From: Promethearchaeota archaeon
GTDB lineage: Archaea > Asgardarchaeota > Lokiarchaeia > Sigyniarchaeales > SOKP01
Length of the DNA stretch: 48,998 nt
Reading direction: 5' to 3'
NCBI GenBank assembly: GCA_048941285.1
Contig: JBHLNS010000024.1
Coordinates: 1 to 48,998, forward strand
In this document: positions 1 to 3,844 of the stretch, in pieces
How positions within the stretch are numbered: the first letter of the stretch is position 1
Layout of the letters: every line of letters begins with the position of its first letter
The notes under the pieces: generated by a model
The model's input: only the letters and a program-made list of their open reading frames with translations
Databases searched by the model: none
Told to the model about the DNA's origin: nothing
Translations under genes and position numbers: made by a program

Positions 1-725
1 ACTACTACCTTGGAAGCTTCAGTTTGCGAAACTTCCCTATTTTCTCGAAGATCAAATTTATTTCCAACCAAAATTATGGGAACATATCTATTTCTTTTTG
101 ATTTTCTAAATGCTGAAATATAATTATCAAGAGTTTCAAAACTAGCTTTATTTGTGATATCATAGAATACAATTGCTCCATCAGCGCCAACATAATAATT
201 TTGCTGAATTTGTTTAAAGCGTTCTTCGTCAATTATATTCCATAATTGTAGAATAACGTCCTCAGTATCTATATCTTTTATTTTTACATTAAAGAAGTCT
301 ACTCCGATTTTATCTTTTTGTTTTTTAGTTGTAACTTTCTCTGAAGTTTTTAAGAGTGTTTCCATTAAAGTGGATTTTCCAACACCTTTATTCCCTAAAA
401 GGCATATTTTTAATCTTTTTGGCTTTACCCTTTCTATGGAAATTTCTGGATTTTTTAGTTCTACTCCCTCTGCTTTAAAAATATTAATTACTTTCTCCAT
501 CACATTTTTAACCTCTGTACTTTGTTGAAGCCCTGTTATGACCATTTTTCCAGTAGAAAATATCACAACCGTTGCTTTTGGGCTCTCTATTTGCATGATT
601 AATCCTGGAAACTTCTTGGGATTATATATCAGTTCGCTATACTTGCTTGCAATCTGATTAAAATTAACCTTTCCTTCGAATGTCATTGTAACAGTACCAA
701 TAATATTGTTCAAATTTCCTGACAA
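1..725 (-). CDS. Single TBP repeat fused to a Rab/Ras-like small GTPase (C-terminus runs off the window)
   Basis: Hand translation from TTG at 725, with GAGGTGG about 10 nt upstream, is open for 241 codons. The N-terminus NIIGTV..FNQIASKYSELIYNPKKFPGLIMQIESPKATVVIFSTGKMVITG matches a TBP repeat. It is followed by KICLLGNKGVGKST (G1), LQLWNIIDEERF (degenerate G3), YYVGADGAIVFYDIT and ILVGNKFD (G4). Confidence 0.88.
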   Translation of the reverse strand, partial: MSGNLNNIIGTVTMTFEGKVNFNQIASKYSELIYNPKKFPGLIMQIESPKATVVIFSTGKMVITGLQQSTEVKNVMEKVINIFKAEGVELKNPEISIERVKPKRLKICLLGNKGVGKSTLMETLLKTSEKVTTKKQKDKIGVDFFNVKIKDIDTEDVILQLWNIIDEERFKQIQQNYYVGADGAIVFYDITNKASFETLDNYISAFRKSKRNRYVPIILVGNKFDLRENREVSQTEASKVV

Positions 726-948
726 TTTATATTATCCACCTCTAAGATAAATACTTTCATATTATGATATATATGCAACGTTTCATATTTAAATATTTTT
801 GAAACAATTAATAATAAAAATTCAATTTTTAATTTCCATTACTCTTATTGCTCTTAATGTTATAGTTAATGATTAGAACCGTAAATTTTAAGATAAAAGG
901 AAGATTTTATTGAATATAAAAGCAATTTTTTAAAAAAAATAACTCTGC

Positions 949-2586
949 TTGAATTTAATGACACATTTGCAAGAAAGTAATACTGAAAAGGTTAAAAAAA
1001 TTGCTAGAGCTACAATAGATTTTCTTATCACTCATCCTCAAACAAATCGAACTAAAATAACGAATATTAAAGCTAAGTTCGCAAAAGAATTTTCTTATGC
1101 AGGTGTTATAAAGAATGCTACAATATTAGAGACGGCTACAAAAGAAGAAAAACAACTTATAACACAAATCCTTAAAAGACGACAAACTAGAACGCTGTCA
1201 GGTGTCTCCGTTATAGCTATAATGACTAAACCGCTCCCATGTCCTGGAACGTGTATATATTGTCCTGGACAAGATTCTCAACCAGGGGAGAGAGTCGCTC
1301 AATCTTATACCGGTCGTGAACCCGCTGCTATGAGATCTATTCATCATAACTATGATCCATATTTACAAGTTCAAAGCAGAATTAATGATTTAGAAGCAAT
1401 TGGTCATACTGTTGATAAAATCGAATTAATCATTATGGGTGGCACATTTTTATCAACTGATCCAAAATACCAAGAAGAATTTATAAAAGGGGCATTAGAA
1501 GGAATAATTGAACAAAGGGTAAATACTTTAGGAGAAGCCAAAAACCTCGCTGAAAACTCTAAAAGAAGAGTTATAGGAGTAACCATAGAAACTAGACCTG
1601 ATTATTGTAAAGAAAAAGATGTAGATCGAATGTTAAACTATGGAACAACTCGAGTTGAGATAGGAATACAAACGGTATATAATGACATTTTTAAACTCAT
1701 AAAGAGAAAGCACACTACTTTTGATAGCAAGGAAGCATTAAGAATTGCCAAAGACGCAGGTTTAAAAATAAATGCTCATATTATGCCTAATCTCCCAGGA
1801 TCTGATATATTAAGAGATAGAGACCTTTTTAATGAATTGTATTCTAATTCAGAATACCGTCCTGATATGCTAAAAATTTATCCTACGCTTGTAATCAATG
1901 GCACTGAATTATATAATTGGTGGAAGAAAGGAAATTATTCTCCTTATAAGGATAATGAATTAATAGAGTTAATTGCTAGGGTTAAAATGAGCCTCCCTCC
2001 CTATGTGAGAATTCAGAGAATTATGCGAGATATTCCTGCCAATTTAATTGAAGCCGGTTGTAAAAATAGCAATCTAAGACAGTTAATACACGAAAGATTG
2101 AGAGAAATGGATGAAACCTGTAAATGTATACGATGTAGGGAATATGGACTAATTAAAAGAAAAAGAGATATTAATGAAATGTCCTTCGATAAAATAAATT
2201 TATATCGGTTTGATTATGACGCTTCTCAAGGAAAAGAGATATTTTTATCATATGAAAATATGAAAGAGGATTATTTAATTGGATATTTACGACTAAGAAA
2301 ACCTTCCGAATTTGCCCATAGATCCGAATTGAATGATGGAAAAACCATGATTGTAAGAGAAATAAAAGTGGTTGGTGAACTTGTCCCAAAAGACTTGAAA
2401 CCAAACTTTTTTACTCAAATTCAACATAGAGGTTATGGGAAACTTTTGATGAACAATGCAGAAAAAATTTCCACAGAAGAATTTGATGCGAAAAAATTAG
2501 CAGTTATAAGTGGTATTGGAGCTAAGTCCTATTTCTATGAAATGGGTTATGAGCCAGATGGAGTATATGTTTCAAAAATGCTTTAG
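949..2586 (+). CDS. elp3: Elp3 tRNA uridine(34) acetyltransferase (radical SAM + GNAT)
   Basis: RTLSGV, CPGTCIYCP, QSYTGREPA, MGGTF, IETRPD, LKIYPTLV, and QHRGYGK acetyl-CoA motif. Confidence 0.96.
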   Translation: MNLMTHLQESNTEKVKKIARATIDFLITHPQTNRTKITNIKAKFAKEFSYAGVIKNATILETATKEEKQLITQILKRRQTRTLSGVSVIAIMTKPLPCPGTCIYCPGQDSQPGERVAQSYTGREPAAMRSIHHNYDPYLQVQSRINDLEAIGHTVDKIELIIMGGTFLSTDPKYQEEFIKGALEGIIEQRVNTLGEAKNLAENSKRRVIGVTIETRPDYCKEKDVDRMLNYGTTRVEIGIQTVYNDIFKLIKRKHTTFDSKEALRIAKDAGLKINAHIMPNLPGSDILRDRDLFNELYSNSEYRPDMLKIYPTLVINGTELYNWWKKGNYSPYKDNELIELIARVKMSLPPYVRIQRIMRDIPANLIEAGCKNSNLRQLIHERLREMDETCKCIRCREYGLIKRKRDINEMSFDKINLYRFDYDASQGKEIFLSYENMKEDYLIGYLRLRKPSEFAHRSELNDGKTMIVREIKVVGELVPKDLKPNFFTQIQHRGYGKLLMNNAEKISTEEFDAKKLAVISGIGAKSYFYEMGYEPDGVYVSKML

Positions 2587-2761
2587 TTCATTATTTTAAT
2601 TTACATAAGAATTTAATAGATCTTGTTTCTTGTTAAAATTGTACAAGCTAACAAATTAGATCGCTAAAAAACATTTCTTTTATTTGAAAAACTTTTTCTT
2701 TTTTATACTTTTTTATACAATATATTATATCTAAGACAAAAATTAATGAGTTTGAATAAAA

Positions 2762-3844
2762 ATGCCTTCATCAAAACCGTTATCAAAGAAAAAAATAACA
2801 CAACAAACCATTTCAATTACACCGGATCTTAAAGAACGAATTGATAATTATGTTATAGAAAATCAAAAAAAGTATCCGAATGATAAGAGATTCAAAAGCG
2901 TCTCATCTTTTTATAATAATGTATTAAAGAAAACAATGGACTGTTTCGATAAGGGAAAAGATTTAGATGATTTTGAAAATTTTGTGGATAGCGAATTCAA
3001 GAATTTTTTTGATAAAATCTCTTTTAAAGCAACAATTCCATATTATGAGGAGGCAATTAAACCAAATAAATATACAAATCCTACACTAGAGAAAATACCA
3101 TCCTTTTTCTTGACAATAAGAAGATTTTACATGAAATTGATGGAATCTCGTGATATCATAAGTATTCAAAATACAGTTAGTCGAATAAAAAATTATTTGG
3201 TATCAAATAATGTCACAAAAGAATTTAAGATAGATCTTTTTACAGGAAAGAGTCGAACAGATTTAACAGGTATTTTCGAATTTGCTGGATTTTATAAAAA
3301 TATATGTTATGAAACTTGTAAATATACTTCGGCATTTTTTGGTATATTAGGGATAAAAATTGACAATATTGTATATTCAGAAAAAGATATCTATTATAGA
3401 TTTGATTTAAAGGCAACAGATTTGTTTTTTCGAGATGATCTAGCCAAACTTGAGAGAACTAAACTAATGAATGAAAATATATCTCATTTTGTTAATTATT
3501 GTAAAATTATCGATGATAAAGATTATTATTTATGGATGAAAGTTGCTGAAGATAAGAATGCAATGGTGTGTTTTAACAATGATGAAACTCGAACTAAATG
3601 GATAAACCTAATTGAAAATGAAATAACAAAATTCTCAGATAAAGAGGATAATAGACTCAAAATTCTAAAATTCTTTGAAAAACTACATTGGATCGATATT
3701 GAAAATGAAGATGATCTTATATTTAATATTAGAATATCAGAATCGAAATATCAATCGGAAAGAGAATTTTTAATAAATTTACTTTCAAAAAACTCTCTGA
3801 TTATGCAAGAAAGTGAGAGTTATTATTTAAAGAACCTGAATTAA
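2762..3844 (+). CDS. Hypothetical protein with N-terminal ribbon-helix-helix-like domain; paralog of 4209..5285
   Basis: QQTISITPDLKERIDNYV...FKSVSSFYNNVL fits a strand-helix-helix pattern. Shares blocks with the next ORF (FFDK.SFKATIP, FRDDLAK.ER, KLHWI). Confidence 0.6.
   Translation: MPSSKPLSKKKITQQTISITPDLKERIDNYVIENQKKYPNDKRFKSVSSFYNNVLKKTMDCFDKGKDLDDFENFVDSEFKNFFDKISFKATIPYYEEAIKPNKYTNPTLEKIPSFFLTIRRFYMKLMESRDIISIQNTVSRIKNYLVSNNVTKEFKIDLFTGKSRTDLTGIFEFAGFYKNICYETCKYTSAFFGILGIKIDNIVYSEKDIYYRFDLKATDLFFRDDLAKLERTKLMNENISHFVNYCKIIDDKDYYLWMKVAEDKNAMVCFNNDETRTKWINLIENEITKFSDKEDNRLKILKFFEKLHWIDIENEDDLIFNIRISESKYQSEREFLINLLSKNSLIMQESESYYLKNLN

What the first reader, a model, noticed from the sequence alone, without database searches (positions are those of the whole stretch)
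1..725. Unannotated fusion of a single TBP repeat to a Rab-like GTPase
Seen: a minus-strand ORF absent from the ORF track. About 95 aa match one TBP repeat, keeping the NI motif and both DNA-intercalating Phe positions (FPGL, IFSTGK). It continues in frame, without a second repeat, into a Ras-superfamily G domain. Known: TBP normally needs two repeats to form its saddle, and single TBP-like domains occur in RNase HIII and some DNA glycosylases. I know of no TBP-small GTPase fusion. Inference: this could be a half-TBP whose dimerisation, TATA binding or TFB sequestration is gated by nucleotide, directly linking GTPase signalling to basal transcription.
Basis: partly seen in the sequence, partly recalled or inferred. 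Interest (0 to 1): 0.92.

Follow-up and report, generated by a model that had tools for sequence, protein, structure and literature searches.

The report
Half-TBP fused to GTPase-type transcription regulator
A real, conserved gene of a few Lokiarchaeia-type archaea joins one half of the TATA-binding protein to a Rab-like nucleotide-binding domain and a DNA-binding winged helix, which points to a new kind of promoter-bound regulator whose function is still untested.

Summary
Window 3-725 (-) is a 241-codon ORF cut by the contig start. Pfam finds one TBP repeat (aa 5-84, E 1.8e-20) and a Ras domain (aa 106-240, E 1.2e-28).

The fusion is not an assembly artefact. Orthologues with the same junction occur in 5 of 400 phylum genomes, all in one family and spread over two genera, plus one metagenome protein. 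Complete copies are 505-508 aa and add an ArsR-type winged helix and a helical tail, both lost off-contig here, so the protein looks like a transcription regulator.

The TBP piece derives from repeat 1 of the housekeeping TBP and keeps the first strand of repeat 2. It was added once to an older GTPase-wHTH family. dN/dS is 0.2-0.4.

The G domain keeps the P-loop, NKxD and SAx motifs but lacks the switch I Thr and the DxxG Gly/Gln.

A 53-nt TATA-plus-palindrome block upstream is 92% identical across genera, which suggests autoregulation. A second regulator family (double Lrp) also carries a half-TBP insert.

Function is inferred only. The homodimer model gave no answer. The architecture is new; interest is moderate to high.

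The parts
3..725 (-). 5' part (241 of about 507 codons) of the half-TBP/GTPase/wHTH gene. It starts at TTG 725-723 and is cut by the contig start.
   Evidence: full-length orthologues of 505-508 aa
426..713 (-). Single TBP repeat (aa 5-100), derived from repeat 1. It includes the S1 motif NNIIGTV (690-710), KFPGL with F39 (600-614), VIFSTGKMVITGL with F56 (528-566), and the retained first strand of repeat 2, NPEISIERV (426-452).
   Evidence: Pfam E 1.8e-20; 48% identity to repeat 1 of the genome's own TBP against 32% to repeat 2; PDB alignments; tree; coordinates
3..422 (-). Rab-like G domain (aa 102-241, C-terminal part missing). Intact: P-loop GNKGVGKST (369-395) and NKFD (51-62). Degenerate: switch I DKIGVDF with no Thr (294-314) and switch II WNIIDEE in place of WDTAGQE (222-242).
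   Evidence: Pfam Ras E 1.2e-28; alignment to Ypt31/Rab11 chains; coordinates
755..807 (-). Conserved 53-nt upstream block, the putative promoter plus operator. It holds a TATA-like TATTTAAATA (786-795) abutting the near-palindrome ATGAAACGTTGCAT (773-786). A GGTGG Shine-Dalgarno-like element lies at 736-740.
   Evidence: alignment of upstream regions of 4 fusion genes and 1 TBP-less gene; inverted repeats; coordinates. The functional labels are inferred.
949..2586 (+). Divergently transcribed Elp3-like radical-SAM gene. It is the conserved neighbour of the fusion gene and of its TBP-less positional counterpart.
   Evidence: Pfam Radical_SAM_C, Radical_SAM, ELP3_N; same neighbour in G014, G024, G212 and G058

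Best explanation
The ORF is the 5' half of a genuine four-domain protein of about 507 aa. The domain order is: one TBP repeat with the first strand of repeat 2, a Rab-like G domain, an ArsR/MarR-type winged helix-turn-helix, and a helical C-terminal domain.

It arose when a pre-existing Lokiarchaeia-type 'GTPase-wHTH' regulator captured the first repeat of the housekeeping TBP at its N-terminus. This happened once, in a subfamily whose G domain had already lost the switch II glycine.

Most likely it is a sequence-specific, autoregulated transcription regulator (inferred). In this reading:
- The wHTH, as a dimer, binds the palindrome that sits between the TATA-like box and the predicted transcription start of its own promoter.
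- The half-TBP acts as a second DNA module, binding the minor groove at the TATA side or occluding TBP there.
- The G domain binds guanine nucleotide as a sensor or regulatory input, not as a fast-cycling switch.

Shown: the gene, its architecture, its conservation, its origin and the conserved upstream element. Inferred: DNA binding, autoregulation and the nucleotide input.
For: Reality and conservation:
- A full match to aa 1-241 occurs in 3 of 41 relatives including G000.
- The fusion occurs in 5 of 400 phylum genomes: G000, G014 and G024 in one genus, G212 and G214 in another, all in one family. It occurs in 0 of 265 genomes outside that family.
- There is also the metagenome protein P0027 and a decayed-looking copy, P0034. 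These are 2 of the 150 best hits among 1.84 billion representatives.

Architecture:
- Pfam finds TBP, Ras and HTH_5/MarR in P0025, P0026 and the G212 protein.
- The AF2 model has mean pLDDT 71. The TBP, G and wHTH parts are mostly 70-90, and the tail is helical with low confidence.

Selection:
- dN/dS is 0.20-0.38 for the TBP part and 0.16-0.23 for the G part.
- Between genera, identity is TBP 52-55%, G 51-56%, wHTH 69-72% and tail 54-55%.

Origin:
- The fused repeats form one clade (SH-aLRT 100). By path length they lie nearest to repeat 1 of the genome's own housekeeping TBP.
- On the G-wHTH part alone, the 5 fusions form one clade (100/99). It is sister to 3 TBP-less proteins that share the W-x-I-I-D-D switch II.
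- TBP-less relatives of 393-442 aa are found in 7 of 54 genus genomes and in metagenomes.
- A TBP-less gene occupies the same PyrK/Elp3 slot in G058.

Cis element:
- The 53-nt block with TATA-like box and palindrome differs at 4 of 53 positions between genera whose proteins are about 55% identical. It is partly shared by the TBP-less G058 gene.

Parallel case:
- A double-Lrp/AsnC regulator carries a half-TBP insert in at least 37 of 135 family genomes, while the rest of the 125 matching genomes have the same regulator without it.
Against: - No experiment or expression data exist.
- The 3' half of the gene is not assembled in this genome, so the wHTH is inferred here from orthologues.
- The wHTH Pfam scores are marginal: 24.4 and 30 bits against a cut-off of 22, and 20.1 bits (below cut-off) in P0026.
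- DNA-contact positions of the TBP repeat are not uniformly kept. The S1 Asn reads N/N/D/N/E/E. In the second genus the 'T' of TGL becomes A and the second Phe becomes Tyr.
- The palindrome is degraded in G024.
- The palindrome is not enriched elsewhere in the genome: 32 sites against 23 control sites at up to 2 mismatches. The only other near-perfect site lies inside a coding gene. No regulon is visible.
- The conserved block could be only a promoter and 5' UTR.
- The distribution is patchy (3 of 54 genomes in the genus). One copy replaced a resident TBP-less gene, so the TBP part is dispensable for whatever the locus does.
Confidence: 0.55

Rival explanations
1. One reading: the half-TBP homodimerises into a TBP-like saddle, and its assembly, TATA binding or TFB capture is switched by GTP/GDP on the fused G domain.
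For: - Both Phe positions and most of the repeat-1 DNA-face motif are kept in the window's genus.
- ArsR-type wHTH proteins are usually dimers (general knowledge), which would bring two half-TBPs together.
- The TATA-like box lies next to the palindrome.
- P-loop, NKxD and SAx are intact.
Against: - The switch I Thr and the Gly/Gln of DxxGQ are absent in all fusion copies.
- The repeat comes from repeat 1, whereas TFB contacts repeat 2 (recalled).
- The retained S1' strand should cap the edge used for pairing of the two halves (an inference).
- The central Asn and Thr are lost in the second genus.
Confidence: 0.12
2. The half-TBP is a protein-interaction or decoy module, not a DNA binder. It would mimic the repeat-1 surface of TBP to bind or titrate a TBP partner, or TBP itself, while the wHTH tethers it to DNA.
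For: - The fused repeat evolves faster than the housekeeping repeat, with a stem branch of 0.57.
- Polar DNA contacts are lost in one genus while helix H2 and the overall fold are kept.
- Half-TBP modules are also joined to a longin-like domain in P0019 and P0021. That is a protein-protein context.
Against: - No partner has been identified.
- The hydrophobic DNA-face residues (F39, F56/Y, V/I) stay conserved.
- Single TBP-like domains are known duplex binders, as in the RNase HIII N-domain (PMC4132731, abstract seen in a search listing).
Confidence: 0.18
3. Evolutionary accident or decaying gene: a lineage-restricted fusion with no function for the TBP part. An assembly chimera is a sub-case.
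For: - The distribution is patchy (5 of 400 genomes).
- P0034 looks like a decayed copy: the TBP repeat and P-loop are followed by unrelated sequence, and it is 215 aa long.
- The gene is truncated at a contig end here.
Against: - The same junction appears in five genomes of two genera and one metagenome protein.
- The frames of 505-508 aa are intact.
- dN/dS is 0.2-0.38 on the TBP part.
- The TBP part is as conserved as the G domain between genera.
Confidence: 0.07

Closest known systems
Monopartite (single-repeat) TBP-domain proteins of Archaea: halobacterial TbpA and the Thermococcales 82-136 aa proteins (Brindefalk et al. 2013, PMC3597702; passages and section 24 read)
   Same: One TBP repeat instead of two. 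The halobacterial ones, like this one, are close in sequence to the TBPs of the same organisms.
   Different: Those are stand-alone small proteins. Here the repeat is the N-terminal module of a ~507-aa GTPase-wHTH protein and keeps strand S1' of repeat 2. 'GTPase' has 0 occurrences in the main text of that paper.
TBP-fold domains fused to other domains: the RNase HIII N-domain and DNA glycosylases (PMC3597702; PMC4132731, abstract only)
   Same: A single TBP-fold domain used as an accessory nucleic-acid-binding module in a multidomain protein.
   Different: Those domains are very diverged in sequence and sit in enzymes. This one is a recent copy of bona fide TBP repeat 1 (48% identity) and sits in a putative regulator.
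Asgard Rab/Ras-like small GTPases, e.g. Thorarchaeota Rab (PDB 7ezb) and eukaryotic Rab11/Ypt31
   Same: Best sequence matches of the G domain: E 9e-28 to 3cpj_B and 2e-26 to 7ezb_A. Foldseek TM about 0.8 by target. P-loop, NKxD and SAx are present.
   Different: The domain is internal with no C-terminal lipidation tail. There is no switch I Thr, and DTAGQ is replaced by NIIDE. It is fused to DNA-binding domains. The two Asgard GTPase papers I searched have no hit for TBP, TATA, helix-turn-helix or winged.
One-component nucleotide-sensing wHTH regulators such as the GTP-sensing repressor CodY of Firmicutes (recalled, not from a call)
   Same: The proposed logic: a nucleotide-binding sensor domain joined to a winged helix that binds an operator at a promoter.
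   Different: CodY senses GTP through a GAF domain, not a Ras-fold domain, and has no TBP module. This is an analogy only.
Lrp-family activator Ptr2, which recruits TBP in Methanocaldococcus (recalled, not from a call)
   Same: A sequence-specific archaeal regulator that works through TBP at the promoter. The same genome has a double-Lrp regulator with a built-in half-TBP.
   Different: Ptr2 recruits free TBP. Here a TBP half is covalently part of the regulator.

Membership tests
TATA-box-binding protein (TBP, PF00352; NCBIfam PRK00394 models) | Sequence matches the TBP repeat model above the curated threshold | tested here: met
   PF00352 scores 73 bits against a cut-off of 22.9, E 1.8e-20. 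Orthologues score 51-67 bits.
TATA-box-binding protein (TBP, PF00352; NCBIfam PRK00394 models) | Two tandem repeats forming the saddle (full-length TBP) | tested here: not met
   There is one Pfam stretch only and one phmmer repeat in all fusion copies. The best NCBIfam TBP equivalog scores 73 bits against a cut-off of 270. It is therefore a TBP-derived domain and not a TBP.
TATA-box-binding protein (TBP, PF00352; NCBIfam PRK00394 models) | DNA-face residues of repeat 1: two intercalating Phe, the central Asn and Thr (their roles are recalled; the positions come from alignment) | tested here: inconclusive
   The window copy keeps N7, F39, F56 and T64. Across the copies the Asn reads N/N/D/N/E/E. 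In genus g15 the second Phe is Y and the Thr is A.
Ras-superfamily small GTPase (PF00071, Rab-like) | Pfam Ras above threshold; G1 P-loop GxxxxGK[ST]; G4 NKxD; G5 SAx | tested here: met
   Ras scores 100-124 bits against a cut-off of 21.6. GNKGVGKST and NKFD are in the window copy. SAL/SAT is seen in the full-length orthologues only.
Ras-superfamily small GTPase (PF00071, Rab-like) | Switch I Thr (G2) and switch II DxxG(Q) (G3), which sense the gamma-phosphate | tested here: not met
   In the alignment to Ypt31/Rab11, 'kstigvef' aligns with 'kdiigvdf' and 'wdtagqery' aligns with 'wniideerf'. The same holds in all 5 fusion copies and in the 3 sister TBP-less proteins.
Ras-superfamily small GTPase (PF00071, Rab-like) | Nucleotide binding and hydrolysis | not testable with these tools
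   Needs biochemistry.
ArsR/MarR-type winged helix-turn-helix regulators (PF01022, PF12802) | wHTH domain above the Pfam threshold | tested here: inconclusive
   HTH_5 scores 24.4 bits (P0025) and 30.0 bits (G212) against a cut-off of 22, but 20.1 bits in P0026. AF2 gives a helix-helix-helix-hairpin at aa 287-352 with pLDDT 79-90. This domain is not present in the window itself (off-contig).
ArsR/MarR-type winged helix-turn-helix regulators (PF01022, PF12802) | Dimeric binding to a palindromic operator, often at its own promoter | not testable with these tools
   A conserved near-palindrome sits next to the TATA-like box upstream of the gene. This is suggestive only.

The most novel reading that the evidence does not exclude
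Regulator-tethered split TBP. In this Lokiarchaeia-type family, dimeric sequence-specific regulators (GTPase-wHTH and double-Lrp) each carry half a TBP. A TBP-like saddle, or a TBP-excluding clamp, would then form on the TATA box only where and when the regulator binds. In the GTPase version, guanine nucleotide or a longin-type GEF/GAP would be the input. That would be a direct wire from the Asgard small-GTPase network to transcription initiation. It would also be a natural test bed for how a one-repeat ancestor of TBP could have worked.
Probability: 0.12. Interest if true: 0.9.

Novelty: new variant of a known kind. Interest (0 to 1): 0.66.

Why it matters
TBP is the universal promoter-recognition factor of archaea and eukaryotes, and small GTPases are a hallmark 'eukaryotic signature' expansion in Asgard archaea. 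A conserved protein that covalently joins a recent copy of half a TBP to a Rab-like domain and a sequence-specific DNA-binding domain has three consequences:

1. It is a concrete candidate for GTPase-type input into transcription in the closest archaeal relatives of eukaryotes.
2. It shows that a half-TBP can be reused as a module by gene-specific regulators. A second, commoner case exists in a double-Lrp regulator.
3. It offers natural one-repeat TBP derivatives for testing whether half a saddle binds DNA, dimerises, or blocks TBP. That bears on the old question of TBP's monomeric ancestry.

The gene comes with a ready-made candidate target, the 53-nt conserved promoter block, so the hypothesis can be tested directly in vitro.

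Tried and rejected
- Homodimer modelling of aa 1-100 in two copies (complex prediction). The verdict was 'no answer': score 0.14 against a mark of 0.42, and the controls were not run. I use it neither for nor against binding.
- AF2 of the longin-like plus half-TBP protein P0019 from a 4-row alignment. Mean pLDDT was 45, too poor for a fold search, so it was not used. The Atlas search with P0019 aa 1-225 returned nothing.
- Foldseek of the full-length model against the PDB. Only Rab chains were listed (the output shows the best-ranked matches). It says nothing about the tail domain.
- Search for the missing 3' half in the same genome. Only 24-25% identical stand-alone paralogues were found (C46, C36), so the gene's end is unassembled.
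- Genome-wide search for the palindrome. There is no enrichment, and the one other near-perfect site is inside a coding gene. The regulon idea was dropped.
- I considered that the fusion arose from the conserved 'small GTPase then TBP' gene pair. I rejected it because the gene order is opposite, and the fused G domain is closest to GTPase-wHTH proteins (37-49% identity) and not to that GTPase (32-37%).
- I considered that G024's Elp3 fragment marks a cassette insertion. Elp3 there is simply split into 157 + 385 aa ORFs.
- Literature: searches, and term look-ups in PMC10933270, 10.1101/2024.02.28.582541, 10.1101/2020.10.19.343400 and PMC10936438, gave no description of a TBP-GTPase or GTPase-wHTH fusion. 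Supplementary tables of these papers were closed and may list such architectures.
Full report
**1. What is in the window**

The window is G000:C29:1-48998, so base 1 is a contig end. On the minus strand an ORF starts at TTG 725 and runs to base 3 without a stop: 241 codons, listed only with open ends. A GGTGG element lies 10 nt upstream (736-740).

Pfam finds one TBP repeat (PF00352, aa 5-84, E 1.8e-20, one stretch) followed by a Ras-family G domain (PF00071, aa 106-240, E 1.2e-28). NCBIfam TBP models match only one half, with a best score of 73 bits against a cut-off of 270. In alignments to solved TBPs, F39 and F56 fall on the two repeat-1 Phe positions. That these are the intercalating residues is recalled knowledge.

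One refinement: the TBP-like stretch runs to aa 100 and includes the start of repeat 2's first strand. NPEISIERV aligns with NPEITIQNI of the genome's own TBP. It then goes directly into beta-1 and the P-loop of the G domain.

**2.

Six-frame searches of related genomes found the same junction elsewhere.
- Among 41 relatives (G000 included), 3 matched the full aa 1-241: G000, G024 (83% identity) and G014 (71%).
- Among 400 genomes of the phylum, 6 reached E <= 1e-31. Five hold the fusion:
  - G000, G014 and G024 in genus g1.
  - G212 (55% identity) and G214 in genus g15. G214 is cut at its contig start but still holds the end of the TBP repeat.
- The sixth, G218, is a TBP-less relative. By family the count is 5 of 134 plus G000 in f1, and 0 of 265 in all other families. 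Only 7 candidates per genome were scored.
- An exhaustive HMMER search of 1.84 billion representative proteins returned 35,163 hits at E <= 0.001. Of the best 150, only two carry both parts. P0027 is 507 aa and 76% identical. P0034 is 215 aa, with the TBP repeat and P-loop followed by unrelated sequence, and looks like a decayed copy.
- The word-index search found no other protein with both domain sets among its 24 hits.

Complete orthologues are 505-508 aa. Pfam adds an ArsR/MarR-type wHTH at aa ~290-333. HTH_5 scores 24.4 and 30.0 bits against a cut-off of 22, and 20.1 bits in P0026.

An AF2 model of the G024 protein (23-row alignment, mean pLDDT 71, pTM 0.58) gives the following:

| Region | Residues | Notes |
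|---|---|---|
| TBP half | 9-98 | strands S1-S5, helices H1/H2, plus an extra strand at 90-98; pLDDT about 80-89 |
| G domain | 103-285 | confidence dips at switch I and switch II |
| wHTH | 287-352 | pLDDT 79-90 |
| Helical tail | 373-507 | low confidence |

The 3' half is not assembled in G000. Only 24-25% identical stand-alone wHTH-tail paralogues were found.

**3. Selection and origin**

Nei-Gojobori dN/dS among G000, G024 and G014 is 0.20-0.38 for the TBP part and 0.16-0.23 for the G part. Between the two genera, identity is TBP 52-55%, G 51-56%, wHTH 69-72% and tail 54-55%. The TBP part is thus held about as tightly as the G domain.

In a tree of 135 TBP repeats, the five fused repeats form one clade (SH-aLRT 100). 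They sit among repeat-1 sequences and are nearest by path to repeat 1 of the genome's own housekeeping TBP on C94. Pairwise identity is 48% to repeat 1 and 32% to repeat 2.

On the G-wHTH-tail part alone, the five fusions again form one clade (100/99). The window copy and P0034 were left out of this tree as truncated. That clade is sister (100/98) to three TBP-less proteins (G218/P0035, P0177) that already share the odd switch II, W-x-I-I-D-D. One capture of TBP repeat 1 by an existing GTPase-wHTH regulator is therefore enough to explain the data.

TBP-less members of 393-442 aa occur in 7 of 54 genus genomes at E <= 1e-40 and in metagenomes. One of those is named 'GTP-binding protein [Promethearchaeota archaeon]' by its source. 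That name, and similar source names on P0019 and P0183, are my only basis for calling the lineage Lokiarchaeia-type.

In G058 a TBP-less gene sits in the same slot between PyrK and the divergent Elp3. In G024 a 114-aa ORF just downstream of the fusion gene is 87% identical to the last 114 aa of the TBP-less G023 protein, but only 31% identical to the fusion's own tail. The fusion gene therefore displaced a resident TBP-less gene there.

**4. The G domain is not a textbook switch**

The best solved relatives are Ypt31/Rab11 (E 9e-28) and a Thorarchaeota Rab (E 2e-26). Foldseek agrees. The P-loop (GNKGVGKST) and NKFD are intact in the window copy, and SAL/SAT is intact in the orthologues.

Two positions are not. 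The switch I Thr aligns with I or K, and DTAGQ aligns with NIIDE. Nucleotide binding is plausible. Gamma-phosphate sensing through Thr and Gly, and Gln-assisted hydrolysis, are not (general Ras-family knowledge). This weakens 'gated by GTP/GDP' in its classical sense. It still leaves room for a sensor or a permanently loaded module.

**5. A conserved cis element**

The 53 nt at window 755-807 (minus strand) are almost invariant upstream of the fusion genes of G000, G014 and G212. G212 differs at 4 of 53 positions although its protein is only about 55% identical. The block is more altered in G024 and partly present upstream of the TBP-less G058 gene.

It contains a TATA-like TATTTAAATA (786-795) that abuts the near-palindrome ATGAAACGTTGCAT (773-786). 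The palindrome is not enriched elsewhere in the genome. Its position, between the TATA box and the expected start site, is that of a classical archaeal repressor operator (general knowledge).

I read it as the gene's promoter plus an autoregulatory site for the wHTH. This is an inference.

**6. Context: half-TBP as a reusable module**

The same genome has two canonical two-repeat TBPs (C94, C35), an 88-aa stand-alone half (C1), and a 427-aa double-Lrp/AsnC protein with a half-TBP between its two Lrp modules (C14).

The double-Lrp regulator is present in 125 of 135 family genomes. In the listed rows, at least 37 genomes hold the version with the TBP insert, and the others hold a 310-350 aa version without it (65 matches were not listed).

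Other Lokiarchaeia-type proteins (P0019, P0021) join a half-TBP to a domain homologous to the 142-145 aa protein encoded just downstream of the fusion gene in genus g15 (BLASTP E 3e-5). The Atlas model of that neighbour resembles NPRL2/folliculin/DENN-type longin domains at TM 0.67-0.71. This is a lead only.

The housekeeping TBP itself lies directly downstream of a canonical small GTPase in G000 and in at least 17 of the 25 g1 genomes in the listed rows.

**7. Mechanism**

Best reading (confidence 0.55): a promoter-bound, probably autoregulated transcription regulator. The wHTH reads the palindrome, the half-TBP provides a second contact that binds the TATA side or excludes TBP, and the G domain supplies a guanine-nucleotide or partner-dependent input.

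Rivals:
- A protein-interaction decoy (0.18).
- A functionless accident or chimera (0.07).

The loss of the Asn and Thr, and Phe to Tyr in genus g15, argue for caution about canonical TATA binding.

**8. Novelty and limits**

Stand-alone half-TBPs and distant TBP-fold fusions are known (PMC3597702; passages and section 24 read). Multidomain Asgard GTPases are known too.

I rate it a new variant of a known kind (TBP-derived modules; one-component regulators) with an unprecedented domain combination.

Noticed in passing
G000:C14:50238-51518 (-) = L010:982-2265 (-): A 427-aa double Lrp/AsnC regulator has a single TBP repeat (aa 184-255, Pfam E 1.8e-17) inserted between its two Lrp modules. The regulator occurs in 125 of 135 family genomes. 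At least 37 (listed rows) carry the TBP insert, and the rest have a 310-350 aa version without it.
   Followed up: partly
G000:C94, L005:1171-1866 (-), 2068-2589 (-), 2758-3237 (-): The housekeeping two-repeat TBP, which has an acidic N-terminal tail, lies directly downstream of a canonical 173-aa Ras-family GTPase (Pfam E 7e-49). Upstream of that is a 159-aa protein with sub-threshold V4R/DUF2507 matches. The GTPase-then-TBP pairing recurs in at least 17 of the 25 same-genus genomes in the listed rows.
   Followed up: partly
G000:C1, L008:1495-1761 (-): An 88-aa stand-alone single TBP repeat (Pfam E 3.3e-21) without the S1' strand. By eye only, its neighbours look like a zinc-ribbon TFS/RpoM-like ORF and a small ribosomal-protein-like ORF.
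   Followed up: partly
L039:3159-3596 (+) and L040:1442-1870 (+); P0019, P0021; G000:C39:30380-31057 (-): In genus g15 the fusion gene is followed by a 142-145 aa protein with no Pfam match. Its Atlas model resembles NPRL2/folliculin/DENN longin domains. It is homologous to aa 71-218 of P0019, where this domain is fused to a C-terminal half-TBP. The G000 homologue of P0019 (56% identity over aa 1-225) ends before the TBP part and has an in-frame TGA.
   Followed up: partly
L012:3228-3572 (+) = L036:10124-10468: A 114-aa ORF downstream of the G024 fusion gene is the orphaned C-terminus (87% identity) of the TBP-less GTPase-wHTH gene that occupies this slot in other species. It is a footprint of gene replacement.
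   Followed up: yes
L036:5949-7614 (-): The Elp3-like gene of G024 is split into two ORFs (385 + 157 aa), whereas it is one ORF of 542-545 aa in G000 and G058. A frameshift, a stop or a sequencing error was not resolved.
   Followed up: no
P0033 (376 aa): A metagenome protein with four TBP repeats, i.e. two complete TBPs in tandem. Repeats 1/3 and 2/4 are nearly identical.
   Followed up: no
window 2762-3844 (+): A 360-aa ORF downstream of Elp3 has no Pfam match. An ORF of similar size (374 aa; similarity not tested) sits at the corresponding place in G058.
   Followed up: no
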